Numbered from the stretch's first letter, positions 4,131 to 22,633 are shown. The stretch is 32,000 nt of DNA from Candidatus Heimdallarchaeota archaeon (GCA_030149205.1 JASBSB010000003.1:60001-92000); one strand, 5' to 3'. Numbers and translations: made by a program. Notes: generated from the sequence alone by a model not told the origin.

Positions 4131-4193
4131 TAAGAAAAAGTAGGAACCTAGTTTATTAAGTTCTACACATGAGCATGGAAAAGTAATAGAATC

Positions 4194-5672: not shown

Positions 5673-7504
5673 CTAGACAATAATTGTTGTAATTGTAGTA
5701 TCTTCATTTCAACCGTTTTTTCTGCGTGAATTGGGCTTAAACTTTCTGGGTTATAACTAAATACCCATGATCTAAGTTCCCGATGGTAAGAAAGATACTC
5801 ACCAATGTCTAAGTTAGGGATGAACTTTTTAATTTGGTCAGTGAACAGTGTATCTAAATCTGAATTGGTTGTAAAGGATTTTCTAAGTCTAAAAACTAAA
5901 ATTTCAGAGTTACTCACAACCCAAGGATCAAACTCAGGTGCTTGAGAAATTGCCATCAAAAATAATCCAAACTTTCTACCTTCAGAGGCTAAATTTCGTA
6001 TCCATTTGTCATTAGCAAGATTCTGAGCCTCCTCTGCAACTATTAGTATCCTGTCACTTATTTTTTCCTGAATTGCCATATTTAGAATTCTCTTTAATAT
6101 GGTCGAAACTATTGTTGTTACAATCCAGGGTTCATCATAAGTTGGCCAAAAAACTATTGTTTCAGCAGAGCTGGTTGGTAATATAACATCTTCTTCTTTG
6201 TCAAGAAGACTCTCAATGGTATCGACAACAAATCTTGAAATAGTAGGTCTTGTTTGTTCTTCTATAGCCTGAAGCTTTTGTGCGAGGTCATCGGGCGATG
6301 CCCCTTCCTGAGAAAATACAGTTTGTTGGGTTCGAATATGCTCCTGAGCAGTTGTAAAAGTATCTCCTATCTCATAGACGGGATAATAACTGGTTACCTC
6401 TGGTTTTTGTTCGCCACCGATTTGAATTATTTGATCAGCGATATCTGCATATTCCAAGTGGTGATCAAAAATAAATACAGTCGTATCTTGAACACGTTTG
6501 TTTTCTTTTATAATTTGTTTGACCAGTGTTGTCTTTCCAACCCCTGTCTGACCTACGATAGACAAATGAGGAGATCCTGCGGGGTTTGCACCCAATATAG
6601 GTACTTCACCAACTGCAACAGGGATATTGAGTTTCATCTTGTTGACATATTTTGTTAGCAAGTCCTCTAATCGGTCTAAATATGGAGATTCAATCAAGGT
6701 ATGTGGAATAATTTTTGATTTTACATGACTTATAGTGTATGAATCAACATTTTCGTTTGAAAATCCACGAATCAGAGCTTCTAAAGCCATGAGTCTTGAG
6801 TCAAGATATTCAAAATCCTCATGAGCATATTTTTTTAGTACCCTTAGTAATTCCAATCCCTCTGTTAAAAAGGAAGTCTCAGAATTATACCTTTCAACCA
6901 TTAATCCAAGCAATTTCAAGAAAGCATTATAAATTTGTAAGGCTATATCTTCTGGATTCCCCTTTCTTTTGAAGAAAAACCCACTTGATTCAGATTGAAA
7001 CTTTTGAATCTGTTCAATGAGTTCTTCTATTAGCTCCTCTTTTTTGTCTTTAGCGTATTTAAGATACCTAAGACAGTAATCGTCTAAACCCTCGAGTAAA
7101 AGGTCAACTATGATATTAATAATCTGTTCAATCCAATCAATCCCCTGAGCCATCTCAAGAGCACCAACTCTAGATTTTACCGCATCACTCAGGTCTTCAT
7201 TCAGTGTTTCTAAAATTTTGGCTTTAAAATGGTAGGCGTAAAGGATAAAGAAAGGGCCGAGTTTGTCAAAATACGGTGCCTCAAGATTTCCTCTCTCAAT
7301 CACCACTTGTAATATTTTTTCAAGACGTGACAAAAGAAGGTGAGACTCTTTCTTTTTACCGACTCCTTCAAAGTATAAAATTGCCTTTTCATATTCTCTG
7401 TATCCACTTAAGTAATCTGTAGTAGAACCTGAGCTAATGGCTTGTTTAAGGGTTTCTTCGGCATCTTTGGCATAGTCCATATAAGATTGAATTGCTTGTT
7501 CCAC
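5669..7504 (-). CDS. HerA/FtsK-superfamily (DUF87-like) P-loop ATPase with ~290 aa all-alpha N-terminal domain
   Basis: HLSIVGQTGVGKT (Walker A), VFIFDHHLEY, ILIVAEEAQ (Walker B), SEGRKFG (Arg finger), AISQ.P. Confidence 0.85.
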   Translation of the reverse strand: MEQAIQSYMDYAKDAEETLKQAISSGSTTDYLSGYREYEKAILYFEGVGKKKESHLLLSRLEKILQVVIERGNLEAPYFDKLGPFFILYAYHFKAKILETLNEDLSDAVKSRVGALEMAQGIDWIEQIINIIVDLLLEGLDDYCLRYLKYAKDKKEELIEELIEQIQKFQSESSGFFFKRKGNPEDIALQIYNAFLKLLGLMVERYNSETSFLTEGLELLRVLKKYAHEDFEYLDSRLMALEALIRGFSNENVDSYTISHVKSKIIPHTLIESPYLDRLEDLLTKYVNKMKLNIPVAVGEVPILGANPAGSPHLSIVGQTGVGKTTLVKQIIKENKRVQDTTVFIFDHHLEYADIADQIIQIGGEQKPEVTSYYPVYEIGDTFTTAQEHIRTQQTVFSQEGASPDDLAQKLQAIEEQTRPTISRFVVDTIESLLDKEEDVILPTSSAETIVFWPTYDEPWIVTTIVSTILKRILNMAIQEKISDRILIVAEEAQNLANDKWIRNLASEGRKFGLFLMAISQAPEFDPWVVSNSEILVFRLRKSFTTNSDLDTLFTDQIKKFIPNLDIGEYLSYHRELRSWVFSYNPESLSPIHAEKTVEMKILQLQQLLSS

Positions 7505-7709: not shown

Positions 7710-8282
7710 ATGATACAACTCTTGGACAAGGAGAGTATTGGTGATGAGCTAGTTGAAAGAATTGTGATTAGACTTACTGATCAGGGATATGATGAGGTTT
7801 TTCAGGTTTTAAGCAAATTGTTTCCAAAAGCCAAAGCAATGAGACTTCGTTCAATGTCTGAAGACCTTTCTGAGAAAAGAGACAACAGACTAATAGAATT
7901 CAACAATTTGATAGAAATGGAACCATTGGATCTGGAACTATTTAATACCCTCTCCAGTGCGGATCAAGATCCACAATTGATTTTCAACAGGGGGTCATGG
8001 GATCCCACAAAGTTTGAGCTCAAATTGGTTTGTGCGAGAACCCCATTAAAGGAATTTTTTGATGAGTGTAAAAGTATAACCTGTGAAAATTGTATAGTTA
8101 GCAGACTAGAAGCGTTTTCTCCTTGGAAAATCACATTGAACAGGGTTGAGGATCGAAGAGTTGATTTATGTAACAACTGTGGAATAATCCTTAGCAAGAA
8201 GGACCAAATTTTCTTAAGGAATGAGAGACTAACCTACGTGTGTCATAATTGTGGTCACAAAGGGTGGAATAAAGCTAAATAA
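7710..8282 (+). CDS. Hypothetical protein with Cys-rich, probably two-zinc C-terminal half
   Basis: Eight Cys: LVC, ECKSITCENC, LCNNCG, VCHNCG; helical acidic N-terminus; stop overlaps the top6A stop. Confidence 0.8.
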   Translation: MIQLLDKESIGDELVERIVIRLTDQGYDEVFQVLSKLFPKAKAMRLRSMSEDLSEKRDNRLIEFNNLIEMEPLDLELFNTLSSADQDPQLIFNRGSWDPTKFELKLVCARTPLKEFFDECKSITCENCIVSRLEAFSPWKITLNRVEDRRVDLCNNCGIILSKKDQIFLRNERLTYVCHNCGHKGWNKAK

Positions 8283-9687
8283 AATTACTGGTTTCTAATT
8301 TATCTGGTAAATAGTGATTTGTTATGAACTGAGGGTCTCTGGCATTTAAAGCCTGTATTTCTGCTTTAACGCCCAAAGACTGCAAAGTTTCCAGCTGTTT
8401 TCGCCACTTTGGTTTCCTTCGAACAAATTCTTCTTCCAACATTAATTTAATTTTGTTCTCATCGTTTTTAGTCAGCTTAATATGAGTTGAGGATGGAATA
8501 TGAAACCCAGAATCATCTTGCAGATCGGAAGGTAACAACCCCAACCATTTCATATTTGGAACAGCTAAGTTTGAGGCTTCAAAAGATAATGATTTAGACC
8601 CAACAGTGTATACTCTCATAATTTCTATTCCATAAACATCAGCATCCATGATTGCTAAAATTGGTAATTTCAATTCCTCATCAATCTTCTTAAGAAACAT
8701 TCTCGTTGCCATATCAGGTTGTCCTTTTGCTGTGACAATGATTGATGGGATATAATCATAGAATTGATCCTCTGCCAATCTATTAAAGACTGCATCTTTT
8801 TCAATAACCAGAACCATTTCTGCGTCACTTTGAATGTTCGAGATTTCTTCTACCATTGGGGCAATGGATTTCCCGGTTCCGATTTTAGTACAATCAATAA
8901 AATCTCCTTTTTCTTCAAATTGAAGCTTTCCAATCACCACACCTTTTGATGAGGCACTAACATTCAGGGAAGGCCTTGTAACTTGGAGTAATGCGCTAAG
9001 ATCTTCTATAAGGCTGTCTGAAGTGCTCTGCCCTTCGAATGCGTTTACATCTTGGTAGAATATATCTCTCTTTGTTGCATGTATATCTCTACTTAAAATT
9101 TCATCTAAGATAACCATCAACCTTGAAAGTTGATAAAAAGATTTTACTGAAGACAAGCTTCTAAATGCACGTTCAATTTTCTGTCGACCTAAAAGCACAT
9201 ATTCGCTCTCTTCATCATATCCTATGTTATCTCCAGAACGTGATGGAATGGAAAACGATGCTTCAGACGGATTCTTAAGAGAATCAAGAACAAATTGTTT
9301 TACAATCTGAGTGAGTCGACTCCTCGTCTCCTCTTCCTCAGTTTGATCAACTTTAAGAATACCGTAAGGCATGATCATTTCATCAGAATATTTACTCTGA
9401 AGGTCTCTAAAGTAGCTCTGGAACTTACTTAAACTTACATCTCTTTTTACATCTATTTCAAGTTTATCTGCCTTAAGGTCGTAGTCACTCAATTTCTTCT
9501 TAGGATCCAAGAAATACCATTTTTTCTTAACACGGATAAATAGTACAAATTTGCTGTTAGGAAGGTTGAACTCTTTTTTGACTTCCTTTTTTAGATCTGC
9601 CATTTCCCAAGTTGTATCTAAATTCAATATGGAATGCTCAACTGGTAGTGTTGTAGAATTTCGGATGGGGATCTCTCTTTTGACCAT
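8275..9687 (-). CDS. top6A: DNA topoisomerase VI subunit A (Spo11 family) with N-terminal ubiquitin-like domain
   Basis: IPSRSGDNIGYD; ATKRDIFYQD with catalytic Tyr211; TOPRIM VLVIEKDAVF and DADVYG; TAKGQPD.ATR.F; KAEIQAL. Confidence 0.97.
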   Translation of the reverse strand: MVKREIPIRNSTTLPVEHSILNLDTTWEMADLKKEVKKEFNLPNSKFVLFIRVKKKWYFLDPKKKLSDYDLKADKLEIDVKRDVSLSKFQSYFRDLQSKYSDEMIMPYGILKVDQTEEEETRSRLTQIVKQFVLDSLKNPSEASFSIPSRSGDNIGYDEESEYVLLGRQKIERAFRSLSSVKSFYQLSRLMVILDEILSRDIHATKRDIFYQDVNAFEGQSTSDSLIEDLSALLQVTRPSLNVSASSKGVVIGKLQFEEKGDFIDCTKIGTGKSIAPMVEEISNIQSDAEMVLVIEKDAVFNRLAEDQFYDYIPSIIVTAKGQPDMATRMFLKKIDEELKLPILAIMDADVYGIEIMRVYTVGSKSLSFEASNLAVPNMKWLGLLPSDLQDDSGFHIPSSTHIKLTKNDENKIKLMLEEEFVRRKPKWRKQLETLQSLGVKAEIQALNARDPQFITNHYLPDKLETSNFI

Positions 9688-12600
9688 TTATTTTCCTCCT
9701 TTGGATTTATTCTTTTTGCCCGGCTTTGTGGTTGGTTTACTTGTTTTCTTTTTCTCCTTCTCCAATTTCAATCTAAAATTAGATATCTCTTTGTTAGTTA
9801 AATTTGAAAATTGTTTAATATCTACATTTGGTGCAAATAAGAAATCTCCAAAAGATTTGATTTTTGATTTCTTAAGCTTCTTCTTTGCTTCAGATGGCAA
9901 TTTAGCTTCTTCTATATCGGTAGCCAGTAACCTTTGTAAGCTTAGTATACCTTCTGTGAATGGACTATTCTTGGGTAATTTAAAATCATTTATGTACACC
10001 TGAATGACGGATTTGATACCCTGCTTGTTTAATTCCTCAATATCCATTGCCCTAATTTTGCGAACCACGTTTAAGGGAGTTATGTCCTCCTTCCTGGCTC
10101 TGTTAATATCAGCTCGAGAGATTTCTGCAGTAACTGATTCAAATTCCTCTAAATTGTTTACCTTAAAATCTTTGAACAATGCGTCAGGAGGAGAAATCAG
10201 AATGTCATAGAGTGTCTTAATTTTCTTTCTTAGCAAGGCTTTAATTGATTTCAACCCTAGAGACCTGAGCGTTTGGGATTCCCAAAGGTAAATGTCTTTC
10301 AGTTTTTCTGATTGACTGAATGTGTTTTCTGTGATCCCTTGTAACCCACTAAAGTCAGCTGCTAAGACATTTGTAGTTAATTGAATCCAACTTGTAAAAT
10401 ATGAGTTTTTCAAACTATCAAAGGAGTTTTGAGGGAAATATCCTATATAGAACAGATTTTTTGTATTAACTAATTTATTTAGATCTAAGTTCTTCAATAA
10501 TGGAAAGTCATTGCTATCGTGTATGACCTTTGATAATATTACATCGGAGACATGGGTAATCCCCTGTTGTACCAATTTTTGAATATCATCAAGCTCTAGT
10601 TCAGGAATTGATAGAATTGAACTTCGTAATGTTTCTCTTGTAAGGTTTAGGTTTTCTGAAATTGAGTTATTTAAGTAATAATTATACATAAACTCCTCAA
10701 CAGTCTTAATACTTGAAGCATTCAATTCACTCTTTATTTGTTTGGGAACAGTTAAGGAGCTAAAGTCATGAAGGTCTGTCAAATAGTCATTTATATCCCA
10801 TTCGTTTACCAAATTTTCAAACATTGAACCCTTCAGATTATCTTCAGAGATATCTCCAAGAGTATCTCCTGTAAACAATTTCAAAATTTCAACTCGTTGC
10901 AGTTGTGGTAATTCCCAATAAAATTTTGCTGCCCAGAGTTTCGAGTTCAAAAATGATTTTAGATGACTAACTGGTTTAAATGTATTAGATAGAGATTTTG
11001 GGATATTAGGGTAGATTGATAATATCTTGAAATCAAAAAGACTCAATGAGAATAATTTTAACTCTGATTTAAGGAGATTAGACACGAATTTGTTATTATT
11101 CGTGGCAAACTCAACCTTAAACTCACCTCTTTTGTCGCTAAACGATTTGGCAGAAACACCTAAAGTATTAATCATTTCTTCCTCACTTTCAGTGTGAAGT
11201 TGCCAATATGTTGTGATACCAATCTCTCTAAGGTCTTTACTCCACTTTTCAGGGAAATTTATTATTTTGTTTAACGGGAGATGTAATAAACTTAGGATAT
11301 CACAAGTTTTCAACTTATCAGATTTTTGGAGTCTTTGTAAGGTTTCTTCATTAATCAATTCATTCATGGTTTCAACTTTATTGCTTTTTAAAAATTCAAC
11401 AAGGTTATGCTCTTGTATTGTATCTTCGACAAGCATTGAGCGTTGTACTATTATTGGGGTTGTAATGGGATCATGCTTGCTAAAATATTTATCTAAGAAT
11501 ACGCTAACCTTCACATTTGAAGTTGGTTTTTGAGAAAATACATCGTTATTAAGTATTAAATCAGCACTCTGACTTAGTTGAGACTTTATAGAATTGATTC
11601 TTTCTTCTTCAATCCCCATTTCGATCAACTGGTTTGAATTAGTCTCAAGGAGCTGTGTGAACAAGAAGATACCATTAGAATTGAGAATTTTTTCTTCTTG
11701 TGTTCGAATTTCAGGTAGGATATTTAATCTTGGGAGGTTACTCAAAATTTCATCTAAATCTAGGGGAGAAAGCGTAGTTGAAACTTCCTTTGATTGTAAA
11801 CCTTGTAGAAATTCTATGATTGTCCCTTCTGGTTCTATTTTGGCCTTTTCTAATAATTTTCTAATTTTCTGTGAATAGTTTAAAAGTAATGCAGGTGAAT
11901 TTAACAGGTCTTTGTATTGTTTTAAGATATTTTGATCTGGTTTACTCAACACTTGAGGTATCTCAGAACCAAGATCAATTAGACTATAAATATTTAAAGC
12001 CGTTAGCCGTTCTTTTCCTTTATCACTGATACTCTGGATGTTATTTATCTGAAGATTATCAATTGAAGTTAGTTTTTCAATCTCAACAAAGTTTATGCTT
12101 TTGATTTTTTCTTTTAATTCCTCTGTTGATATGTTTAAGACCTCAGTGATCGCTTTAGGAGAGGACACTAAAAGGTCAAATATGGAAGATATATTCAATT
12201 CGTCCAACTTATCCTGATCAAACAGTTTCAACAATTTTACACTTGTAAAGAAAATTCTTTGTTTAGAACCTAATTTTCCAGAACCAACTTTTTCCATCAA
12301 ATTTGACAATGGTTGAGATAAATCAATGAAAGATTTCATTGATTTTGGCAGATTTAAGTCGGAAACCTTAAGCAAACTTTGAACCTTTCTATGATTGTGA
12401 ATTATTAAATTAACCCTATCTTGATAATTTGATAATCTTTCAGAGAAATCAACTAAAGATTTTGGAAACATCAGAAAGTCTACTATTTCAAATATTGATT
12501 TTTTGAGTAATGCCTTTATTTCATTTAAGGTTAAAATATCTCTAAGTGTAGTATCTAGGATATGTGTAACCAAAAGAAAATGAATATTTTTTAATTCGAA

Positions 12601-15600
12601 GTCAATATTTACCAAGGGATGACTTCTTCTAATAAACAATTTAGGAAGTGTGTGGAGCGGATCTTCTAAAAATTCCAATGACTCCTCAGAGTACAAATCA
12701 TCATAATTTGAAATTTCTTCGCTATCAACATTAATAACAAAACTCAAGGCTATATCTTGCAGTTGTTTTATTCTCTTTTTAGATATTGAAGTGTTAGTAA
12801 ATAGCTCTGCCGGAGCTAACAGCAGGTCATTTATTGAGATGATCCCTGATTTCCATAATTCCCAAAGTTCTGTTTCTTCAATTGAAGAGAGCCCAGAAAT
12901 CAAATTGTATGAATTTTTGATGATTCTTTGAATAGGAAATGTGGGTTGTGAATTTGTTTTCATTATACTCATCGATCTTTCTATGGAATAGTTCCAAAGG
13001 TGGTGAAATCCAGTTACATGAGTTGCTAGCTGAGTCGAAATTTCATCAATACTGTTTTCCGGAAGATTCAATTCATCATGAACCACTAAATTTGATTGCA
13101 GTTCATGCCAAAATATATTGAACTCATCTTTTGACATTAAATCTTTTAGTTCTGATAAATAATGGATTAGTTCGTCTAACCATAATATTGGGATAGGAAC
13201 AGACAAACTGCGATTGTTGATAGACAACATGGTTAAAGGTATTTTCAAACCTTCACGAACGGCTTTTAAATTATTTTGCTTAATTCCTAAATAGGTATCT
13301 AACCTGTGAGGAGAGGATAGAATTGTTTGTACATTGACCTTCTCAGATTCAACCCTTCTAAAAAGGCTAAGAGAGACAGTTCTGATGAACTCTAAAGGTA
13401 ATTCTAGTTCAGTTTGAATTGTTGGATTTTTAAGAAATGTATCAACAAAACCTTTGGGTAATAACGGTCTTAGAAATGGGTCAGTAAGAAGTTCAAGTAC
13501 AGTTGAACAAGAATATTTGGTTGTAGCCAGATGAAGTAATGCCCCAGGTAAATCCAATAGAAGTGGTGATTCACACAAGGTTTCGTAAAGTAACTTTCCT
13601 TTTTTAGGTAGATTAGTCTTCCTGGATGGTTTTAAATCAACCCACATCTTAAAATTTTGAAGATTTGTTATTCCGACCGAACTTGGAGTATTTAGCGAAA
13701 TTTCTAAAGGTAACTGATTTTCAAGATATGTTTTCCAACCAACTAACAGGATATCTCTTATAATATCTAATTCATAGTCCATCATCCTAAAGGCCAGAAT
13801 TGATTCGATTATTGTTCTGGCTCCCAGATTTATAGTGTCTTGGAGGTCATTTGCATATCCATGTAAAAATACATTCGAAGAAAACAAAAATAGTTTAAGT
13901 TCTCTAATGTTTGGATTTTGAGTTGTCAGAACTGTGACTGTCTCGTCAAGGAACTTCACATTATCAAATTTTAAACTTGAATCGAAAACAAATTGATCAA
14001 CTGATAACCCTTTTCTTTCTAACAACTCGTTAAGCTCTGTAGTATCAAAATTATCCTTAAGTTCTCTAAAGAATTTTTGAGTCAAACCAGAGATTAAAGA
14101 CAGCTCCTTAGGGTCATTGAGGATCGCACCTTCAACAGTGGTAATACCCGCATTATAGAGGGACCTAAATTGTTCAGGGGTGAGATTTAGAATAGTTATA
14201 GGTGTTGTACCAGTTTTAACCAGTTCAATTAATGCACCTTTTTGTTTAAGCAATGACTGTATTATTGAGATAGTACCCTCTTCTGTGTTATCATAAAGTA
14301 ATACAAGGTCTGCAACCGTTAATTCAGATAGGTCATCTGATATCTCTTGATCCAGGACATTCACAAATGGAGTATTTTTTAACTCTAAACTGAGAAAGGA
14401 TCGAATTCTATAGAGTACCTCATGATTTAACGCAGGAGAGTTTTCTTTCCACCTTTCTAGTAATGTTCCATCAATTTCTTCATTTGACCCTGCAATTGCA
14501 GGTATCTTAGACATTGCAATTAATGGTTTAAGGTCAATGAATTTCTTCGTAAGTAATGTTAGTAATGCATCAATTTCGGGTGTGGGACTTGGGAGATCTT
14601 CATTTGATACAAACAACAAATCAACCAAATTATTTACATGAAACTCGTGTAATAACGATAGATCACCCTCACTAATAGTTTGGAAGACTTCCAAAGGTAA
14701 GTTTAAGACTTCTTGGACAGAGTTAATTATATCTAACAAATATCCTTCACCAAGAAAGTTAGAAGTGTTTATTTGATAGTACAGCTCTTGTAAGGTGTCT
14801 ATCTGACTAATTTCAAAGATTGTAGCCTTTTCTATGGTCTTTAATTCTGTTCTGTTGAATACATTTATGTCCTTTAAAGGTATTCCATTTTCAGATTCCT
14901 TCTGGGTGACTGATTCTATTGATACTAAATCTTTGATACCTCTCACATCTTTTTCTGATAATGTAAGAGTCTTTGCTAGTTTCTTGTTTGATGTCTCAAA
15001 AAAGTCTAAGATTGTATGAATTCCATTTGTAATTAGCTTCTGGGTTTCAAAATAAGTTAGACCAGGAATAAAATACACAGATTTATAAAATTGCCCCACC
15101 AATTCTTCGAATTCTAAAACGTGTTTTAGATTCTCATACCGCTCTGCCGGGAGCCCAGTCTTCTGTTCAAGTATTGGATCACCTGTTAGTAGAAAATCAA
15201 TAATAGTATTGACTCCATTTGCATTTAAGAGTGAAACTACATCCTCTCCTAAATCGTTTTCAACAAAATTAATTGGTAACCTAAGGATTGATTTTATTGC
15301 CTTAATTGCTTCCCAAGGGATTAAATTTGAGTCCCAAGACTCTTCAAATGATGAAAAATAAAGGTCTTCAACTGTGATATAATTCATTGAATTCAGGTGA
15401 GAAATATGTGATGGCCTGAATAGGTTGAGATTTTCAAGCTCAATTCCAACCTCTTGTAGGAATGCAGTGGTCTGTCTTTCTCGAGTTTTCTCCTCAGTCC
15501 AATCCAAGATCTTTGAGATTACTTCACTGGGTTGGGTGAGGAAATCAAAAACTCTGGTTAATTTTGCTAAAGAAAGAGACTTTAATTCGTCAGAAGTTAA

Positions 15601-18600
15601 TGTAACATATCGGAATTTTTTGGTTGTCACCGTTTCTTCCCCACTATCCACTCCCTCAGAATCTACTGGATCACCATCGTTACTATTCTCAGAATTTTCT
15701 GGAATTAAATCATTATCGAGTTCAGATTCTTCTCTTGGAATTTTGGTTGTTACCTCATATTCCTCTTTCCAAGATAAAAGTACAGAGGGAGACCGTAAGA
15801 GACTCTTCATATGATTAATTATGCTCCAGCTTAATCCAACTACCTCGAAGTTTTTAGCATTTGTTAGATAATATAATGTCTCTATGGTGTCATAACCACT
15901 ATCAATGAGACTATCAATCTCGGAATTACTAAAATGAGATATACCCTCATAATCAAAGGTAAAAATGGGTGAGTACTTCTTCCCTTCCAATTTGACTAAT
16001 GGGGTTCCAAAGTTCCTAAAAGTAGACTTGGATAATTTTTCATTTATGTTTTTCAGTGATTGTCCTAGCACTTTGGAAATTTTTGTAGCTGATGTTAAAA
16101 AGAGCTGGTAGACAGTCTTGATATGATGATTTTGAAGTAAATCAACCTCAACTGTGCTGAATTCACTTAAATGAATCAAAGATTTGGATAAATTCTCTTT
16201 GAGGTTAAAAACACGTATCCCAGAAAGAGTTGGTTCTATTAGTCCCTCAGGAAAGTTATTTTGTTTGAGGTTTAGATAAAGTTCTTCAATTAGGCCAGAT
16301 CCTTTCTTGTTTGAAACTAGTTTTGTTAACTTCGGAATAGAAGATGACATAAAATCAAATAAAAGTACAACACCACCATCTTCTAAATTTTTCAGGGCAG
16401 ATTTTAAGCTTTTTTCCTCTGATTTCGACACTTTCAGATTATCAACTAAGACACCAAGAGGTGAAAAAAGAGTATGGTTCAGTGTTTTATGATCATATAT
16501 ATTACCGTTTGTTAATGAATTTGGCAACTCGTCATTCCAAAGAGTTGTAATTAATTGATTTAAACTTTTAAAGCCGAGTTTCTCAAGAGCAATGATATCT
16601 TCTTTTGAGATAACATTTGTGAAATCATTGTAATCAGTTTGTTTGTTATTGACTTTATTGAGAGAAGAAAGTGAAATTCCGTCCAGGATTAAATCAAACC
16701 ACTCCCCACTAAGATTTGTAATAATTTCTAATTCGTCGGTATCCCAGATCAATAGTTTCCCTACTGTATTAATACCCGCGTCTAACAAGATTGGTAAATG
16801 TTGAATTAACTCTTCGGAGACTGTGTTTATTGGCAACAACATATTAGAATAAAGCTTCTCAAGTTTTTTTACATCTTTTTCATCTTTTGCATTTCCAATA
16901 AAATAATCAAAATTGAAATAAAACTCCTCCAGAGTTGAGACTCCAATTTTATTGAGAAGTTTTATCTCAGAGCTTTTTAACCCTTTAAACACAGTTTTGA
17001 ATGACTTTGCCCTTCTAACATGGTCTCTGATTTCACTTGGGAATTTATCAATTGGTAAGGCTAAAAATTCAGAGAGAGAGAGTAGATCATGTTTGATCAA
17101 ATAGCTTTCCAAATCTTGGTTTATGATTTTTAGCTCATAAAGGCTTTTAACATCATTTTGGCTTACTAGTTGGTCGATAATTTTTGCTTTGGTTGAGTTA
17201 AATAAGGCAATTGTTAATTTAGAATTTGCGTTTAATTTTGCACAATAATCAAGAGATTGTGTTAATGCTAATTCTTCTAGACTAGAAATACCCTCTTTCT
17301 TAAAGAGAGGCACATATACCATTGTTTCTTCATCAACCTCTTTAAACTTACCTAAGTCTGTCTTGACTTCTTTTAGTTTATCTATAATCCTTGTAAAAAT
17401 AAGTCTTAACAGCTCAGACATTTCTAAAAGAAGTTCGTCAGTTGCGCCTAAAACATCACCTAGCTTTGACAATTTTCTACGTTTAAAGGAGTTTTTTGTG
17501 TATCCGTCGGTCCATTTTTGATTCTGATCAATTCTTAAGTCTTTTAAGTCAGGATTTTTTTCTATAAGCTTTAGTATGCCATTTTTAAAATTGTCAATAA
17601 TTAATTGATTTAAACTATCATAAGTAATGGGGGATGATGGATTGGTAGTTTCAATCAAAAATTCAACATAAGAGGTTATTTTTCTTTTTTTCACTTCAGG
17701 GTATTCTAAAATCTCCTCAACAGTCGGTAAAAAGAAATCTAATTTAATTTTATCTGCTGTTAAACTTTCTGTTATTTCTTCCCTTAACTTAGGGTTAATA
17801 GCTTCAGGGATTGAGGTAGATTTAGAAGTCTTTTCTGGATCTTCTAGATTTATTTCTAAGAATTTCTCAAGTCCCATTAATTCTTCTTTTGAAAGCTGTA
17901 AATCACCAGAGGTGTTATCTCTATTTGTATATTCTAGTATATGTTGAATGATTTCAAGTCTTTTTTCTTCAAATATTTTAGGAAGAAGCCCCTGAATTCT
18001 TAGGAGATATTCATCTGGTGTAACTAGATAATCCCAAACATTTCTAATCCACTTTCTTGGGAGAGCTTTAGAAAGATGTAAGAGATTTAAACTTAAATCA
18101 CGTGAATGAAATCTCTTTTCTATTTCAGGATTAAGAAAAACCTGAGTTACTATGGGTTTAATTTTCTTAAAGTCATCAAATATAACTATAGTTCTTCTCT
18201 TGATCTCATCAATTTGGGATATATCGAGGTTGAGAATTTTCGAAAGTTTTTCGTTTCTTTCGGTCAAAAATTCCTCAACGGTCAAAATTCCAGATTTTTG
18301 TAGATTGTTTATAACATCAACATCACTCCAGATTGGTTCAATCAAAACGTGTTTTGTTTGAGGCTTAGAAAACCTTGCAATTCTGGCTTCACCTGAAGAA
18401 AGAGCTGCAATTACCCTAGATGGTTTTAATCCAGTCTTTGTATTCCAAACCCCTCCTCTTTCCAGTAAATTTATGAGATTTTCAACTGTTTTTGGTGCAT
18501 ACAGTTCAAATCGAGACCTTCTTTGTCTCTCTCTTTGCTTTCTTCGAGATCTACTTAAGAAAGATTTTAATTTTCTACCAAGCTGTAGCAGTGCTAATTT

Positions 18601-20094
18601 TACCTCTTCTGCGATTTCATCCACTTTATCAATATATTCTTTTGACGTTTCTGGGAAAGGGATTTTTGTAGAAACCAAAGATACCGCAATAGCTAGTGGA
18701 TCAGTTTGACGTGTGAGTCCATACTCGTTCCATTTTATGGAATTGACTACCTGAGTTATAACATCATTCCCTGCTCCAAAAATCAATGGAATTCTATTTG
18801 CATATCTATAAATAATTTTATTGTCAACTACTGTTACACCTTTGGAATTAACAGCTGAAGATACTCCTCCTCCGTAACCCAGTGCAGCTTCAATTACAAA
18901 TGGATGTCCTTCATAAGCCCTCGGTGGTCTTGAAACAGCTTCAACAAATACCGGCTCTAACTCTTTTTCTATCCCTTTTCTAAGTCTTGTAGTGCCTAGT
19001 GGAGATAAAGCGTCACCCTTAGGGTCATCAAATTTGAACACTCGATCCCTTTTCCTCTTAATCTCTTTAGATTCTCTAAGTGCCCTTTGAAATCCATCAT
19101 GTACGATTCGTCTTATTTCCTTATCTGTTAATTCTGAGGGAAGTTTCGATGAATCTACTCCAACTTCTTCGAAAAATAATTCTGCTGCTTGTTCAGTTAC
19201 ACCCATAAAATGTGTGACAAGGAAGTCTAAAACATTCTGTCCAGGTTCTGCGCTCACAATTTCTCTGCGGAAGGTTGTGATATCCGCACCCCAAGGGTGT
19301 ACTGGAACCACCTCTGGTGGTTTTGGAAGTTCATCAACAACTCTTTTGAAGAAGAACTCATCATCTAACCCTGCGGTATCGGAGGGTAAGAAAATATGCA
19401 TATCTGCATAAGGTGTAATTATAGCAAGCTGTTTGAAATATTCACGAACGTAATTTTTAGCCTGTCCCCAATTTCCTGTGAATGATACTTTTATATCCGT
19501 CCCGAACTCATCAAAAAATTCCTTGTCTCCCTCTCTGAATTGCTCATCACTGACAATTATAGGTTGGTTCTTTTCTAAATCGATCAGTAGTTTAACCCTA
19601 TATGTTACATCTTCACCAAGAGGTCGAGTCGTAATCTGAATCGGTAAATCCAATGTTGACATTGAGTAGAGAAGAACCATTTTACTACCAAGTCCAAATC
19701 TTCCCCTTGTTTGTTGAGCCCCATATTTTGTCCCTGCGAGAACTGTCCCAAATAGAGTTGGAATCAGTTCCCTTCTTACACCAACACCATTGTCCTTACA
19801 TGATAATTCTAGGAAGTCAAGTTTCTTATTCGACAATTTAGAAATCTCGATCTCCATTAGATCTCCAACTTCTGACAGGCTCATTTTTCTCAGTTGCATA
19901 CTAATTAATGGGGTAATATTACGCTTTTCTGAGGCATCTAACGCATTTTCTACTAACTCTCGAACTGAGGTGAATACAGCTCGCAATGGATTCCCAAAAC
20001 CTGCAATACTCTTGTTATCATTGAAAAAAACAGCAGCACTGGCTGCTCTTGCCTTTGAATCAGACTTTATAGCTTTCTTTTGTTTTGTACTCAT
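9688..20094 (-). CDS. top6B: Giant DNA topoisomerase VI subunit B (3468 aa) with a C-terminal array of HhH-like repeats
   Basis: GHKL motifs RELVENALDA, KDNGVG, QTRGRFGLG; H2TH (FLVTHFMGV); transducer YRYANRIPL and PFPETSKEYI (conserved Lys). The core ends near 18500 and the frame stays open for a further ~8.8 kb. Confidence 0.96.
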   Translation of the reverse strand: MSTKQKKAIKSDSKARAASAAVFFNDNKSIAGFGNPLRAVFTSVRELVENALDASEKRNITPLISMQLRKMSLSEVGDLMEIEISKLSNKKLDFLELSCKDNGVGVRRELIPTLFGTVLAGTKYGAQQTRGRFGLGSKMVLLYSMSTLDLPIQITTRPLGEDVTYRVKLLIDLEKNQPIIVSDEQFREGDKEFFDEFGTDIKVSFTGNWGQAKNYVREYFKQLAIITPYADMHIFLPSDTAGLDDEFFFKRVVDELPKPPEVVPVHPWGADITTFRREIVSAEPGQNVLDFLVTHFMGVTEQAAELFFEEVGVDSSKLPSELTDKEIRRIVHDGFQRALRESKEIKRKRDRVFKFDDPKGDALSPLGTTRLRKGIEKELEPVFVEAVSRPPRAYEGHPFVIEAALGYGGGVSSAVNSKGVTVVDNKIIYRYANRIPLIFGAGNDVITQVVNSIKWNEYGLTRQTDPLAIAVSLVSTKIPFPETSKEYIDKVDEIAEEVKLALLQLGRKLKSFLSRSRRKQRERQRRSRFELYAPKTVENLINLLERGGVWNTKTGLKPSRVIAALSSGEARIARFSKPQTKHVLIEPIWSDVDVINNLQKSGILTVEEFLTERNEKLSKILNLDISQIDEIKRRTIVIFDDFKKIKPIVTQVFLNPEIEKRFHSRDLSLNLLHLSKALPRKWIRNVWDYLVTPDEYLLRIQGLLPKIFEEKRLEIIQHILEYTNRDNTSGDLQLSKEELMGLEKFLEINLEDPEKTSKSTSIPEAINPKLREEITESLTADKIKLDFFLPTVEEILEYPEVKKRKITSYVEFLIETTNPSSPITYDSLNQLIIDNFKNGILKLIEKNPDLKDLRIDQNQKWTDGYTKNSFKRRKLSKLGDVLGATDELLLEMSELLRLIFTRIIDKLKEVKTDLGKFKEVDEETMVYVPLFKKEGISSLEELALTQSLDYCAKLNANSKLTIALFNSTKAKIIDQLVSQNDVKSLYELKIINQDLESYLIKHDLLSLSEFLALPIDKFPSEIRDHVRRAKSFKTVFKGLKSSEIKLLNKIGVSTLEEFYFNFDYFIGNAKDEKDVKKLEKLYSNMLLPINTVSEELIQHLPILLDAGINTVGKLLIWDTDELEIITNLSGEWFDLILDGISLSSLNKVNNKQTDYNDFTNVISKEDIIALEKLGFKSLNQLITTLWNDELPNSLTNGNIYDHKTLNHTLFSPLGVLVDNLKVSKSEEKSLKSALKNLEDGGVVLLFDFMSSSIPKLTKLVSNKKGSGLIEELYLNLKQNNFPEGLIEPTLSGIRVFNLKENLSKSLIHLSEFSTVEVDLLQNHHIKTVYQLFLTSATKISKVLGQSLKNINEKLSKSTFRNFGTPLVKLEGKKYSPIFTFDYEGISHFSNSEIDSLIDSGYDTIETLYYLTNAKNFEVVGLSWSIINHMKSLLRSPSVLLSWKEEYEVTTKIPREESELDNDLIPENSENSNDGDPVDSEGVDSGEETVTTKKFRYVTLTSDELKSLSLAKLTRVFDFLTQPSEVISKILDWTEEKTRERQTTAFLQEVGIELENLNLFRPSHISHLNSMNYITVEDLYFSSFEESWDSNLIPWEAIKAIKSILRLPINFVENDLGEDVVSLLNANGVNTIIDFLLTGDPILEQKTGLPAERYENLKHVLEFEELVGQFYKSVYFIPGLTYFETQKLITNGIHTILDFFETSNKKLAKTLTLSEKDVRGIKDLVSIESVTQKESENGIPLKDINVFNRTELKTIEKATIFEISQIDTLQELYYQINTSNFLGEGYLLDIINSVQEVLNLPLEVFQTISEGDLSLLHEFHVNNLVDLLFVSNEDLPSPTPEIDALLTLLTKKFIDLKPLIAMSKIPAIAGSNEEIDGTLLERWKENSPALNHEVLYRIRSFLSLELKNTPFVNVLDQEISDDLSELTVADLVLLYDNTEEGTISIIQSLLKQKGALIELVKTGTTPITILNLTPEQFRSLYNAGITTVEGAILNDPKELSLISGLTQKFFRELKDNFDTTELNELLERKGLSVDQFVFDSSLKFDNVKFLDETVTVLTTQNPNIRELKLFLFSSNVFLHGYANDLQDTINLGARTIIESILAFRMMDYELDIIRDILLVGWKTYLENQLPLEISLNTPSSVGITNLQNFKMWVDLKPSRKTNLPKKGKLLYETLCESPLLLDLPGALLHLATTKYSCSTVLELLTDPFLRPLLPKGFVDTFLKNPTIQTELELPLEFIRTVSLSLFRRVESEKVNVQTILSSPHRLDTYLGIKQNNLKAVREGLKIPLTMLSINNRSLSVPIPILWLDELIHYLSELKDLMSKDEFNIFWHELQSNLVVHDELNLPENSIDEISTQLATHVTGFHHLWNYSIERSMSIMKTNSQPTFPIQRIIKNSYNLISGLSSIEETELWELWKSGIISINDLLLAPAELFTNTSISKKRIKQLQDIALSFVINVDSEEISNYDDLYSEESLEFLEDPLHTLPKLFIRRSHPLVNIDFELKNIHFLLVTHILDTTLRDILTLNEIKALLKKSIFEIVDFLMFPKSLVDFSERLSNYQDRVNLIIHNHRKVQSLLKVSDLNLPKSMKSFIDLSQPLSNLMEKVGSGKLGSKQRIFFTSVKLLKLFDQDKLDELNISSIFDLLVSSPKAITEVLNISTEELKEKIKSINFVEIEKLTSIDNLQINNIQSISDKGKERLTALNIYSLIDLGSEIPQVLSKPDQNILKQYKDLLNSPALLLNYSQKIRKLLEKAKIEPEGTIIEFLQGLQSKEVSTTLSPLDLDEILSNLPRLNILPEIRTQEEKILNSNGIFLFTQLLETNSNQLIEMGIEEERINSIKSQLSQSADLILNNDVFSQKPTSNVKVSVFLDKYFSKHDPITTPIIVQRSMLVEDTIQEHNLVEFLKSNKVETMNELINEETLQRLQKSDKLKTCDILSLLHLPLNKIINFPEKWSKDLREIGITTYWQLHTESEEEMINTLGVSAKSFSDKRGEFKVEFATNNNKFVSNLLKSELKLFSLSLFDFKILSIYPNIPKSLSNTFKPVSHLKSFLNSKLWAAKFYWELPQLQRVEILKLFTGDTLGDISEDNLKGSMFENLVNEWDINDYLTDLHDFSSLTVPKQIKSELNASSIKTVEEFMYNYYLNNSISENLNLTRETLRSSILSIPELELDDIQKLVQQGITHVSDVILSKVIHDSNDFPLLKNLDLNKLVNTKNLFYIGYFPQNSFDSLKNSYFTSWIQLTTNVLAADFSGLQGITENTFSQSEKLKDIYLWESQTLRSLGLKSIKALLRKKIKTLYDILISPPDALFKDFKVNNLEEFESVTAEISRADINRARKEDITPLNVVRKIRAMDIEELNKQGIKSVIQVYINDFKLPKNSPFTEGILSLQRLLATDIEEAKLPSEAKKKLKKSKIKSFGDFLFAPNVDIKQFSNLTNKEISNFRLKLEKEKKKTSKPTTKPGKKNKSKGGK
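9695..9699 (-). promoter_or_regulatory. Shine-Dalgarno GGAGG for top6A, encoded within the last codons of top6B
   Basis: Minus strand reads AAA GGA GGA AAA TAA ATG; GGAGG is 7 nt upstream of ATG 9687. Confidence 0.8.
9770..18310 (-). repeat. Protein-level tandem array of about 35-40 degenerate RadA/Rad51-NTD-like (HhH) units inside Top6B
   Basis: Recurrent motif L-x-x-x-G-I-x-T/S-h-x-D/E-h-h, e.g. LQKSGILTVEEFL, LLDAGINTVGKLL, LNANGVNTIIDFL, LYNAGITTVEGAI, LWKSGIISINDLL, LREIGITTYWQL, LNKQGIKSVIQV. Recurrent linker L-x-x-P-h, e.g. LLRSPSVL, ILRLPINF, VLNLPLEV, LLNSPALL, LLHLPLNK. Count made by eye. Confidence 0.85.
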
Positions 20095-20101
20095 TAGCTT
20101 G

Positions 20102-20107
20102 TCACCT
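20102..20107 (-). promoter_or_regulatory. Shine-Dalgarno AGGTGA for top6B
   Basis: AGGTGA 7 nt upstream of ATG 20094, complementary to the archaeal 16S 3' end. Confidence 0.7.
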
Positions 20108-21940: not shown

Positions 21941-22633
21941 CTACATCTTGATATCGTCTATAACCATCTTAAAGACCTTGATTGTTTTTTCTGTGGTGTT
22001 AAAAGGCCAGACTCTGTCTTCTGTATTGACAACGAAATCAGCCAAAGCCATTAATTCCCCTAACCCATATCCCAATTCTTTTGAATCTCTAAGATCAAAT
22101 CTTGACCGGTCTCTTGCCATAGCCAGATCCTCAGTTGCTTTACTCTCCCCCTGCTCTTTAGATGCTTCCTGTCTGTCCACATTAGTTAAACGACCATGTC
22201 GCGTATCAGCTGATGCATGAAATGAGATCAAAAACACATTAGTTTCACCCACCTTTTCTTTGACCAATTCATATTCACTTCGTGCCTTGATCCCAGATAA
22301 GAAAACTACTGGTTCAGATTTATAATTTTTTTCAATAAACTCGATAGCTCTTTCTGTAAAATACGAATCAGATTCTTTTTTACATTCTCCAGCTACTTTG
22401 ACAATATTTTCAACTGTTGCTTCTAACCCCCGTTCTTCAACTGCTTTATATACAAAGGTCCCTGTTTCAACCAAAGGGATGTTTTCTAAGTCACCTAGTT
22501 TTCTTGCATGAGATGACTTCCCAGAAAGTGGTAATCCAACTAAAATTATAACCTTCAACGAAAGGACAATTTTCAATAATGCTTTTAAGTTTCCTTTACT
22601 GTTCAAATCTGTTGATAAATCTTTATCACTCAA
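21941..22633 (-). CDS. P-loop nucleotide kinase, archaeal UPF0200 / dephospho-CoA-kinase-like family; start uncertain (TTG)
   Basis: VIILVGLPLSGKS; ERGLEAT.ENI; ASADTRHGRL; RDSKELGYGLGELMALADFVVN. Confidence 0.8.
   Translation of the reverse strand: MSDKDLSTDLNSKGNLKALLKIVLSLKVIILVGLPLSGKSSHARKLGDLENIPLVETGTFVYKAVEERGLEATVENIVKVAGECKKESDSYFTERAIEFIEKNYKSEPVVFLSGIKARSEYELVKEKVGETNVFLISFHASADTRHGRLTNVDRQEASKEQGESKATEDLAMARDRSRFDLRDSKELGYGLGELMALADFVVNTEDRVWPFNTTEKTIKVFKMVIDDIKM

What the first reader, a model, noticed from the sequence alone, without database searches (positions are those of the whole stretch)
8275..20107. Both topo VI subunits are modified and tightly coupled: a candidate specialised topo VI system
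Seen: the top6B stop abuts the top6A start in the same frame (GGA GGA AAA TAA ATG), each gene has its own SD at 7 nt spacing, and all catalytic residues are retained (GHKL Glu/Asn, transducer Lys, Tyr211, TOPRIM Glu and DxD). Inference: an active A2B2 enzyme produced stoichiometrically, in which two independent accretions may have co-evolved. This matters for how Spo11/Top6BL acquired accessory control in eukaryotes. Whether this is the housekeeping topo VI or a second specialised paralog cannot be told from this window.
Basis: partly seen in the sequence, partly recalled or inferred. Interest (0 to 1): 0.7.

Follow-up and report, generated by a model that had tools for sequence, protein, structure and literature searches.

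The report
Giant HhH-tailed topoisomerase VI with ubiquitin-like Top6A
This Heimdall-group Asgard archaeon's only topoisomerase VI has a seven-fold oversized B subunit (a normal enzyme core plus about 2,900 residues of small helical modules) and an A subunit that starts with a built-in ubiquitin-like domain; the pair is inherited together across the lineage, always sits beside a second type II topoisomerase, and is described in no paper I could search.

Summary
top6B (window 9688-20094, minus strand, 3,468 aa) ends in a TAA that directly abuts the ATG of top6A (8275-9687, 470 aa). Each gene has a Shine-Dalgarno-like purine run 7 nt upstream, and all catalytic residues are present.

The "second specialised paralog" reading is not supported. 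The genome (93.5% complete) holds one top6B and one top6A, so this is its only topo VI. It also carries a gyrB-gyrA pair about 74 kb away.

Both additions are lineage traits of Heimdallarchaeia (Kariarchaeaceae here):
- A C-terminal train of RAD51-NTD/alphaCTD-like helical modules on Top6B, 2.3-4.3 kaa of whole protein across families.
- An integral ubiquitin-fold domain on Top6A.

In 201 Asgard genomes the ubiquitin-like domain (UBL) occurs only in the families that have a giant Top6B. Both core trees recover the same clade, so the two were gained once and co-inherited. A sister form (about 1,113 aa, canonical (HhH)2, no UBL) coexists with a canonical topo VI.

Every sampled genome with the HhH-tailed enzyme, where sampling allowed a check, also has gyrase or a second short topo VI. 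The array here is net acidic and lacks the canonical G-h-G hairpins, so bulk DNA binding of the Topo V kind is doubtful.

The tight B-to-A coupling is ordinary for topo VI. This scan has already reported both features on other genomes.

The parts
20102..20107 (-). Shine-Dalgarno-like AGGTGA, 7 nt before the top6B ATG
   Evidence: read directly
9688..20094 (-). top6B, 3,468 aa including the stop (P0001)
   Evidence: NCBIfam PRK04184 scores 441 bits against a cut-off of 274
18457..20094 (-). Top6B core, aa 1-546: GHKL ATPase (E46, N50), H2TH, transducer (aa 358-525; N433, K485)
   Evidence: phmmer hit to 2zbk_B at 2.5e-89
17947..18456 (-). Proximal conserved module of the extension (aa 547-716). 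It is the best-conserved part across Kari-, Heimdall- and Hodarchaeal forms and is net basic
   Evidence: AF2 pLDDT is above 90 over most of it
9772..18456 (-). Train of diverged RAD51-NTD/alphaCTD/SAM-like five-helix modules (aa 547-3441). A profile finds 22 significant and 7 marginal units; spacing suggests about 40. Net charge about -73
14911..15609 (-). Central conserved HhH island (aa 1496-1728). It holds the strongest unit matches, is 52% identical within the family, and matches the canonical (HhH)2 tail of the 1,113-aa sister form
9691..9771 (-). Lys/Ser/Thr-rich basic C-terminal tail (aa 3442-3468); no PIP-like motif
9695..9699 (-). GGAGG inside the end of top6B, 7 nt before the top6A ATG. 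The TAA stop (9688-9690) abuts the ATG (9685-9687)
8275..9687 (-). top6A, 470 aa including the stop (P0002)
   Evidence: The AF2 model matches 2zbk_A at Z 32.1
9439..9687 (-). Integral ubiquitin-like beta-grasp domain, aa 1-83
9274..9336 (-). Top6A N-terminal helix (aa 118-138). In solved topo VI the equivalent part contacts the end of the Top6B transducer. It is preceded by helix 87-100 and a low-confidence linker
   Evidence: The role is inferred from 2zbk/2q2e as described in PMC9665070
8959..9144 (-). 5Y-CAP/TP6A_N (aa 182-243) with the catalytic Tyr211 (codon 9055-9057)
8296..8817 (-). Toprim domain (aa 291-464) with E296 and D348-x-D350

Best explanation
This is the organism's single topoisomerase VI operon (top6B then top6A), in the form typical of Heimdallarchaeia.

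Shown:
- Top6B is a complete GHKL-H2TH-transducer core. It is followed by about 2,900 residues that fold into a continuous, mostly rigid train of small five-helix RAD51-NTD/alphaCTD-like (HhH-derived) modules and end in a lysine-rich tail.
- Top6A is a complete 5Y-CAP/Toprim subunit preceded by a non-conjugatable ubiquitin-fold domain on a helix and a flexible linker.
- All catalytic residues are kept.
- The two additions arose in one ancestral lineage, the tail first and the UBL later. They are inherited together across Heimdallarchaeales, Hodarchaeales and one further family.

Inferred:
- The enzyme is an active A2B2 type IIB topoisomerase, made from one transcript with termination-reinitiation coupling.
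- The Top6A N-terminus packs against the C-terminal end of the Top6B transducer in solved topo VI. Both additions should therefore project from the same A-B joint.
- The enzyme is a specialised decatenase or chromosome-associated topoisomerase that shares the work with gyrase. This rests on the co-occurrence result below, and on Top6B C-terminal extensions tracking gyrase in archaea (PMC9348778).
- The arms act as long positioning or scaffolding arms. DNA contact is probably limited to the basic proximal module, the central island and the basic tail.
- The UBL acts as a docking handle for a ubiquitin-fold-recognising partner.
For: Identity and activity:
- Family and domain matches.
- Catalytic residues.
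- Top6A model: mean pLDDT 85, Z 32.1 to 2zbk_A.

Single copy. gyrB-gyrA in the same genome.

UBL:
- The AF2 model has a beta-grasp at aa 3-82.
- That region matches many UBLs at Z 9-10.7, rmsd 2.0-2.7 A over 72-82 residues.
- Orthologues pass Pfam ubiquitin and Rad60-SLD cut-offs, and 15 of 48 N-termini hit PF00240.
- A profile of the domain retrieves polyubiquitins from 1.84 billion proteins.

Array:
- Pfam RAD51D_N, RNA_pol_A_CTD and HHH_5 match.
- The AF2 model of aa 547-1150 has pLDDT 86.5 and pTM 0.79.
- Single units resemble the RAD51C NTD, RNAP alphaCTD, AF1548-C, SAM domains and XPF (HhH)2.
- The array is colinear between orthologues with few gaps: 30% identity against 73% for the core.
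- There is no DNA-level repeat.

Distribution and co-inheritance.

Sister form with canonical (HhH)2 and no UBL.

A second type II enzyme is always present:
- Gyrase is found in f1 6/6, f2 22/22, f3 1/1, f4 2/2, f5 9/10 and f6 2/2.
- f7 (0/6 for gyrase) and f20 (0/5) instead carry a second short topo VI.

The genome encodes E2-type enzymes and a ubiquitin.
Against: - Nothing here measures activity, DNA binding, expression or partners.
- The array of this protein is acidic overall (pI 5.3, net -73). It has no G-h-G hairpin in 2,922 residues, against 5 in the 567-residue tail of the sister form. This argues against a simple DNA-coating tail.
- Structural matches of the single units are weak (Z at most 4.2).
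- The rule that the enzyme is never the only type II topoisomerase rests on about three independent lineages. Archaea with gyrase keep topo VI anyway.
- The genome is 93.5% complete, so a second topo VI cannot be fully excluded.
- TIGR01052 scores just under its cut-off (369 against 381 bits).
Confidence: 0.72

Rival explanations
1. One reading: this is a second, specialised topo VI paralog working beside a canonical housekeeping topo VI in the same cell.
For: This arrangement does exist in relatives. Family f7 has a canonical pair (B about 510 aa, A about 375 aa) plus an HhH-tailed pair (1,113/403 aa). Family f20 has a giant B plus a 564-aa B about 5 kb away.
Against: Own genome: one transducer match and one Toprim match. 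The same holds in nearly all of 46 genomes of the order.
Confidence: 0.03
2. Topo V-like reading: the array is a polyvalent, sequence-independent DNA-binding tail that raises affinity, processivity or salt tolerance by coating DNA with dozens of HhH motifs.
For: - The units are homologous to HhH families.
- The sister form carries canonical (HhH)2 with G-h-G hairpins.
- The proximal module and the Lys-rich tail are basic.
- The Heimdallarchaeaceae array is net +25.
- Topo V has 12 (HhH)2 domains that bind DNA (PMC9489208, abstract).
Against: - Net charge is -73 and pI 5.3; the stretch aa 1347-2146 is net -56.
- There are 0 G-h-G hairpins in 2,922 aa.
- The C-terminal half evolves too fast for BLAST detection between families.
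- The pTM of 0.79 points to a rigid body rather than beads that wrap DNA.
Confidence: 0.22
3. Scaffold reading: the modules have become protein-protein interaction or spacer units, as RAD51-paralog NTDs, RNAP alphaCTD and SAM domains often are. They recruit or space replication, recombination or segregation factors, and the UBL is one more such handle.
For: - The closest structural and sequence relatives of the units are interaction domains.
- The surface is acidic.
- Units are conserved position by position and length is conserved with few indels.
- The Top6A N-terminus and the Top6B transducer end lie together in solved topo VI (PMC9665070), so the UBL and array should project from the same joint.
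- A ubiquitin system is present.
Against: No partner is identified. Most of the array is only 18-36% identical within one family, which is low for specific interfaces.
Confidence: 0.3
4. Spo11-like reading: the complex has shifted from strand passage to regulated double-strand-break formation, a recombination initiator.
For: - The clade is on the Asgard side nearest to eukaryotic TOP6B in my tree.
- PMC12680538 reports eukaryotic Top6A/Spo11 as sister to the conserved Asgard copy.
- The modules resemble RAD51-family NTDs.
Against: - GHKL E/N, the switch Lys, the anchoring Asn and H2TH are all kept. Top6BL proteins lack H2TH and often the ATPase motifs (PMC9665070).
- Eukaryotes lie outside the HhH-tailed clade.
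Confidence: 0.04
5. Neutral ballast: the extension is a tolerated, functionless expansion.
For: Sequence divergence is fast (30% against 73% for the core).
Against: - A frame of about 8.8 kb is kept open in every lineage.
- Length classes are conserved per family.
- The array is colinear with few gaps.
- The fold is predicted with confidence.
- Conserved islands exist.
Confidence: 0.04

Closest known systems
Canonical archaeal topoisomerase VI (S. shibatae 2ZBK, M. mazei 2Q2E, M. jannaschii Top6A 1D3Y)
   Same: Same enzyme family and same catalytic residues in both subunits. The B-then-A operon with tight coupling is shared. The Top6A core superposes at Z 32.
   Different: - Top6B is 3,468 aa instead of about 500-620. 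It has no Ig-like CTD of the M. mazei kind and carries about 2,900 aa of HhH-derived modules instead.
- Top6A has an extra 83-aa ubiquitin-fold domain and a helix.
- The clade has a signature PFPETSKEY around the switch lysine.
Lineage-specific Top6B C-terminal extensions of gyrase-bearing archaea (Villain et al. 2022, PMC9348778)
   Same: The extension follows the transducer and occurs in a gyrase-bearing Asgard lineage. The proposed meaning, division of labour with gyrase, fits.
   Different: That paper describes extensions of about 100 residues and a 'globular domain' for Asgard. Its main text does not mention a 2-4 kaa HhH train; I did not read its supplement. Family f20 has the giant form without gyrase.
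Methanopyrus kandleri topoisomerase V (type IC) with 12 tandem (HhH)2 domains (PMC9489208, PMC4838376)
   Same: It shares the architecture: a topoisomerase catalytic module followed by a long tandem train of HhH-type domains.
   Different: - The catalytic domain is unrelated (type IC against IIB).
- Topo V has canonical DNA-binding (HhH)2 and AP-lyase sites.
- Here the G-h-G hairpins are gone and the array is acidic.
- Foldseek gives Topo V only at E of about 1-3.
Integral (type-2) ubiquitin-like domains of multidomain proteins (TBCB/TBCE Ubl, SHANK3 SPN, Rad60 SLD2, Dsk2/Ddi2 UBL)
   Same: The beta-grasp fold matches at Z 9.6-10.7. The domain is not at a C-terminus, has no Gly-Gly, and is built into a larger protein.
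   Different: It is fused to a DNA-cleaving topoisomerase subunit in an archaeon. No such fusion was found in the papers searched.
Asgard/eukaryotic-type Top6A and Top6B with an extra N-terminal helix and a third transducer helix (Brinkmeier et al. 2022, PMC9665070; PMC12680538)
   Same: It belongs to the 'conserved Asgard' copy that those papers place nearest to eukaryotic Topo VI/Spo11. My B-core tree agrees.
   Different: Those papers, as searched, mention neither the UBL nor the giant array. Eukaryotic TOP6B is about 630-760 aa and lies outside the HhH-tailed clade.

Membership tests
Top6B (topoisomerase VI subunit B) | GHKL ATP-binding fold with the catalytic Glu and the Mg-binding Asn | tested here: met
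   E46 and N50 align with S. shibatae E38 and N42.
Top6B (topoisomerase VI subunit B) | H2TH domain, which separates Top6B from Top6B-like proteins | tested here: met
   The alignment to 2zbk_B and 1mx0 is continuous through the H2TH stretch. PRK04184 is matched over positions 7-493 of 539.
Top6B (topoisomerase VI subunit B) | Transducer with the anchoring Asn and the switch Lys | tested here: met
   PF09239 at 5e-53. N433 and K485 are present. The WKxY motif reads WNEY.
Top6B (topoisomerase VI subunit B) | Curated whole-protein model cut-offs | tested here: met
   PRK04184 scores 441 bits against a cut-off of 274. TIGR01052 scores 369, just under its cut-off of 381.
Top6A/Spo11 | 5Y-CAP with the catalytic tyrosine | tested here: met
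   Y211 aligns with S. shibatae Y106. TP6A_N at 3.5e-18.
Top6A/Spo11 | Toprim with the acidic Glu and the DxD motif | tested here: met
   E296 and D348-x-D350 are present. PF21180 at 2e-58. The model matches 2zbk_A at Z 32.1.
Ubiquitin-like beta-grasp domain (integral UBL) | beta-beta-alpha-beta-beta...beta grasp fold | tested here: met
   AF2 places it at aa 3-82 with pLDDT 82-92. It matches many UBLs at Z 9-10.7, rmsd 2.0-2.7 A.
Ubiquitin-like beta-grasp domain (integral UBL) | Sequence membership in the ubiquitin family (PF00240) | tested here: inconclusive
   The window's own domain scores 14 bits against a cut-off of 25.4. Orthologues P0072 and P0076 pass (30.6 and 29.3 bits; Rad60-SLD 32.6 and 31.6). 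15 of 48 orthologues match. The domain profile retrieves polyubiquitins.
Conjugatable ubiquitin-type modifier | Free or processable C-terminal Gly-Gly | tested here: not met
   The domain is N-terminal and runs on into helix 87-100 and the Top6A core. No GG follows the last strand.
(HhH)2 / RAD51-NTD-like modules | Sequence match to HhH-type families | tested here: met
   RAD51D_N whole-protein score is 60.5 bits against a cut-off of 27.3, summed over many weak stretches. RNA_pol_A_CTD scores 26.6 against 23.8. Orthologues score more strongly. My own profile finds 22 units.
(HhH)2 / RAD51-NTD-like modules | Canonical G-h-G hairpin that contacts DNA phosphates | tested here: not met
   There are 0 G-[IVLMFA]-G in 2,922 residues, against 5 in the 567-residue tail of the f7 sister form. 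Only the x-G-I-x-T type hairpin remains, about 20 copies.
(HhH)2 / RAD51-NTD-like modules | Five-helix fold of the single unit | tested here: inconclusive
   The best matches are the RAD51C NTD (Z 4.2, 62 of 64 residues, rmsd 2.7) and alphaCTD (Z 3.5). These are weak because a 604-residue model was searched.
(HhH)2 / RAD51-NTD-like modules | DNA binding | not testable with these tools
   Only charge could be computed, and the array is net -73.
Topoisomerase V | Type IC catalytic domain | tested here: not met
   The catalytic module here is type IIB. Topo V appears only as a weak Foldseek row, E 1-3.
Top6B-like / meiotic Spo11 complex | Loss of H2TH and frequent degeneration of the GHKL motifs (PMC9665070) | tested here: not met
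   H2TH and all ATPase residues are kept.

The most novel reading that the evidence does not exclude
The HhH-tailed, UBL-bearing topo VI of Heimdallarchaeia is a dedicated chromosome-untangling or segregation machine of about one megadalton. It cannot serve as a cell's only type II topoisomerase. Its rigid arms are scaffolds that position the enzyme on chromatin or partners. Its ubiquitin-fold handle puts the DNA-cleaving subunit under control of the Asgard ubiquitin-recognition machinery. That would be a prokaryotic precedent, in the closest relatives of eukaryotes, for accessory-protein control of Topo VI/Spo11.
Probability: 0.2. Interest if true: 0.85.

Novelty: new variant of a known kind. 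Interest (0 to 1): 0.62.

Why it matters
Topo VI is the archaeal ancestor-type of the eukaryotic Topo VI/Spo11 machinery. Heimdallarchaeia and Hodarchaeales are the archaea most often placed next to eukaryotes.

In these lineages the "conserved Asgard" topo VI is a giant enzyme with a ubiquitin-fold domain on the cleaving subunit, and it is always accompanied by another type II topoisomerase. Three consequences follow:
- It changes what should be taken as the starting point for eukaryotic Topo VI evolution.
- It gives a natural test case for how large accessory modules tune a type IIB topoisomerase.
- It shows that database entries labelled plain "Top6B" hide a seven- to eight-fold size range.

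The sequence data do not show that eukaryotic accessory control descends from these additions.

Tried and rejected
- Expression: a search for public RNA runs holding window 9000-11000 listed no RNA holder. No reads were laid, so nothing can be said on expression.
- Binding: complex prediction of the UBL (alignment A3) against array aa 547-1150 (alignment A2) gave no verdict, score 0.00 against a mark of 0.32. This is neither for nor against binding.
- Fold search: Foldseek of the array model against the PDB gave no match at E of 0.001 or better. ESM Atlas shape search gave only TM 0.10-0.25 rows, all NusA, RadA or alphaCTD themed.
- Feature search: an ESM Atlas feature search of the UBL gave scores of 0.80 or less, leads only.
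- PIP-box lead from earlier scan notes: neither a strict nor a loose Qxx[LIM]xx[aromatic] motif lies in the last 120 residues of this protein or of its Kariarchaeaceae orthologues. Heimdallarchaeaceae tails do carry KQTTLLD-type peptides and some Hodarchaeales carry QKSLNAF. I rejected it for this protein.
- Recent repeat expansion: rejected. There is no DNA tandem repeat and the units are positionally conserved.
- Promoter and terminator scan: no more sites than in shuffled sequence, which is uninformative for an archaeon.
- dN/dS: not computed. At 41% array identity to the nearest orthologue, synonymous sites would be saturated.
- Literature: full-text searches found no description of a giant Top6B or a UBL-Top6A. 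Subscription journals and supplements are not covered.

Full report
**What is in the window.** Two minus-strand ORFs fill 8275-20094. The upstream one (9688-20094) encodes 3,468 aa and the downstream one (8275-9687) encodes 470 aa. The stop of the first (TAA, 9690-9688) directly abuts the ATG of the second (9687-9685). GGAGG lies 7 nt before that ATG, inside the end of the first gene. AGGTGA lies 7 nt before the first ATG, after a 230-nt AT-rich spacer.

**Identity and catalytic competence.**
- Residues 1-546 of the long protein are a full Top6B core. NCBIfam PRK04184 scores 441 bits against a cut-off of 274, the Pfam transducer matches at 5e-53, and phmmer to S. shibatae 2zbk_B gives 2.5e-89.
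- By alignment, E46 and N50 match E38 and N42, N433 matches N375, and K485 matches the switch lysine K427. The H2TH stretch is aligned without interruption.
- The 470-aa protein is Top6A, with TP6A_N and Toprim matches. Y211 aligns with the catalytic Y106 of S. shibatae, and E296 and D348-x-D350 are present.
- Its AF2 model (mean pLDDT 85) superposes on 2zbk_A at Z 32.1 over residues 115-470.

**The Top6A N-terminal domain is ubiquitin-like.**
- The model shows a strand-strand-helix-strand-strand...strand unit at residues 3-82 (pLDDT 82-92). A helix (87-100) and a low-confidence linker follow.
- A structure search gives dozens of ubiquitin-like domains for residues 1-83 at Z 9-10.7. Examples are SHANK3 SPN, the tubulin cofactor B/E Ubl, Rad60 SLD2, ubiquitin and NEDD8, with rmsd 2.0-2.7 A over 72-82 residues.
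- The window's own sequence is below the Pfam ubiquitin cut-off (14 bits). Two orthologues pass both ubiquitin and Rad60-SLD, and 15 of 48 orthologous N-termini hit PF00240.
- A profile of the domain, run against 1.84 billion representative proteins, retrieves polyubiquitins as its top hits. Top6A fragments appear as the single-stretch N-terminal hits.
- There is no Gly-Gly and the domain continues into the enzyme, so it is an integral UBL and not a modifier. It is mostly basic (here net +5).

**The Top6B extension.**
- Pfam sees many weak matches to RAD51D_N, RNA_pol_A_CTD, HHH_5 and AF1548-like_C.
- A profile built from 1,572 units of all giant homologues finds 22 significant and 7 marginal units between residues 587 and 3445. 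From the spacing I estimate about 40 modules.
- AF2 of residues 547-1150 is confident (pLDDT 86.5, pTM 0.79) and all-helical, with one disordered loop. I read that as a continuous rigid body rather than beads on a string.
- Single units resemble the RAD51C NTD (Z 4.2), RAD51-paralog NTDs, RNAP alphaCTD, AF1548-C, SAM domains and XPF/PolX (HhH)2. These matches are weak but coherent.
- There is no DNA-level tandem repeat.
- The array aligns colinearly with orthologues with few gaps. It averages 30% identity within the family, against 73% for the core. Conserved islands lie at 547-700 and 1501-1700. Beyond about residue 2000, homology between families is no longer detectable by BLAST.
- Two points weigh against a simple DNA-coating tail. 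The extension is acidic (pI 5.3, net -73) and is basic only in the first 200 residues, around 2547-2746 and in the last 120 residues. It also contains no G-h-G hairpin at all.

**Which organism, and how widespread.**
- Named relatives of both proteins are Candidatus Kariarchaeaceae, Heimdallarchaeaceae and Hodarchaeales.
- The open frame around the Top6B transducer has family-specific lengths:

| Family | Top6B open frame (aa) |
|---|---|
| f1, the window's own | about 3,470-3,590 |
| f2 | 4,140-4,305 |
| f3 | 4,244 |
| f4 | at least 3,573 |
| f5, Hodarchaeales-type | 2,312-2,346 |

- In the protein collection, 86 proteins of 1,907-6,069 aa share this core. All are labelled plain "DNA topoisomerase VI subunit B".
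- Elsewhere in 201 Asgard genomes, only family f20 reaches about 2,290 aa.

**Housekeeping or second paralog?** The genome (3.3 Mb, 12 contigs, 93.5% complete) has one transducer match and one Toprim match. This is its only topo VI. It also has gyrB and gyrA, the latter with five C-terminal blades, about 74 kb away on the same contig.

**Do the two additions go together?**
- A UBL profile hits f1 6/6 besides the window's own genome, f2 21/22, f3 1/1, f4 2/2, f5 9/10 and f20 3/5. In the other 21 families it gives nothing except two weak, differently sized frames. The families hit are exactly those with a giant Top6B.
- In the B-core tree the giant forms are one clade (100/98). In the A-core tree the UBL-bearing subunits are one clade (91/100) with the same internal order.
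- So the two features are co-inherited from one ancestor. That is a single event and cannot by itself show co-evolution.
- The sister group of the giant B clade is a 1,104-1,162-aa Top6B, common in "Heimdallarchaeota" MAGs. Its roughly 570-aa tail carries canonical (HhH)2 motifs of the LPGVG or IKGLG type, and its Top6A (403 aa) has no UBL. The tail therefore came first, and the UBL and the great expansion came later.
- In the genomes that carry this sister form, a canonical short pair (about 510/375 aa) is also present.

**Relation to other type II enzymes.**
- GyrA is found in all sampled genomes of f1-f4 and f6 and in 9 of 10 of f5.
- It was not found in f7 (0/6) or f20 (0/5). These are precisely the two groups that keep a second, short topo VI.
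- Gyrase-bearing families f14 and f27 have Top6B frames of about 1,013-1,178 aa. This fits the published observation that Top6B C-terminal extensions track gyrase (PMC9348778).
- I infer that the HhH-tailed enzyme is specialised and relies on another type II topoisomerase for part of the work. The inference rests on few independent lineages.

**Relation to eukaryotes.** In a quick tree, seven eukaryotic TOP6B sequences group with the HhH-tailed clade plus one 814-aa "Korarchaeota"-labelled sequence, against the other Asgard copies (support 99). They lie outside the HhH-tailed clade itself (support 99). This agrees with PMC12680538, which places eukaryotic Top6A/Spo11 next to the conserved Asgard copy. 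It gives no support for descent of eukaryotic accessory control from the array or the UBL.

**Mechanism, and how sure.**
- Shown: composition, fold predictions, distribution and co-inheritance.
- Inferred from solved topo VI, where the Top6A N-terminus meets the end of the Top6B transducer (PMC9665070): both additions leave the holoenzyme at the same joint. A direct docking test gave no verdict.
- My preferred reading is an active A2B2 decatenase-type enzyme. Its two rigid arms would act mainly as scaffolds or positioning arms, with DNA contacts limited to a few basic parts. Its UBL would be a docking handle in a cell that has E2 enzymes and ubiquitin.
- The main rival is a Topo V-like polyvalent DNA binder.

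**Prior knowledge.** The papers searched mention Asgard Top6B C-terminal domains, an extra Top6A helix and multiple Top6A/B pairs. None mentions a 2-4 kaa array or a UBL. This scan has reported both features repeatedly on other genomes. I re-tested their main claims here. Their PIP-like tail motif is absent from this family.

Noticed in passing
L034:2413-4800 (G190, Asgard family f11): A Top6A homologue of at least 796 aa (the ORF is cut by my locus end) carries four canonical N-terminal (HhH)2 domains (Pfam HHH_5 5e-44, four stretches). It sits beside a 648-aa Top6B. HhH modules were therefore also added to the A subunit, independently, in another Asgard family.
   Followed up: partly
L030:383-1705 (G087, family f12): A Top6A of 441 aa has an N-terminal extension of about 60 aa that looks like a winged helix (weak HTH_Cmi2_C match, 1e-4). 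It is paired with a 653-aa Top6B, and the same genome also has a canonical 498/380-aa pair.
   Followed up: no
G119:C6:522196-528528 (family f20): A giant top6B (about 2,290 aa; the frame contains a run of N) and a second 564-aa top6B lie only about 5.4 kb apart. No gyrA was found in 5 genomes of this family.
   Followed up: partly
G070:C296:12612-16610 and G061:C4:229372-240148: gyrA lies directly upstream of the giant top6B in families f6 and f5. This is the gyrase-topo VI gene string that the scan noted earlier in Hodarchaeales. In the window's genome the two operons are about 74 kb apart.
   Followed up: partly
G015:C1:2232384-2235035, G020, G031, G229 and others: GyrA open frames of 1,266-1,738 aa have the Pfam match split into separated pieces. 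They look like intein-bearing gyrA genes.
   Followed up: no
window 20324-21934 (-): A 536-aa protein with a PolyA_pol head domain and its RNA-binding domain, of the class II CCA-adding enzyme type, lies just upstream of top6B. This is unusual for an archaeon. A P-loop kinase-like gene follows at 21941-22633.
   Followed up: no
window 18630-18660 (Top6B aa 479-488): The whole HhH-tailed clade, including the 1,113-aa sister form, shares PFPETSKEY around the switch lysine. Canonical copies have PY[KR]TAGKE.
   Followed up: no
window 24144-26675 (-) and 5669-7504 (-): A DEAD/Helicase_C protein with an MrfA-type Zn-binding domain (843 aa) and a HerA-like ATPase (611 aa) flank the region. No link to the topo VI operon was examined.
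   Followed up: no
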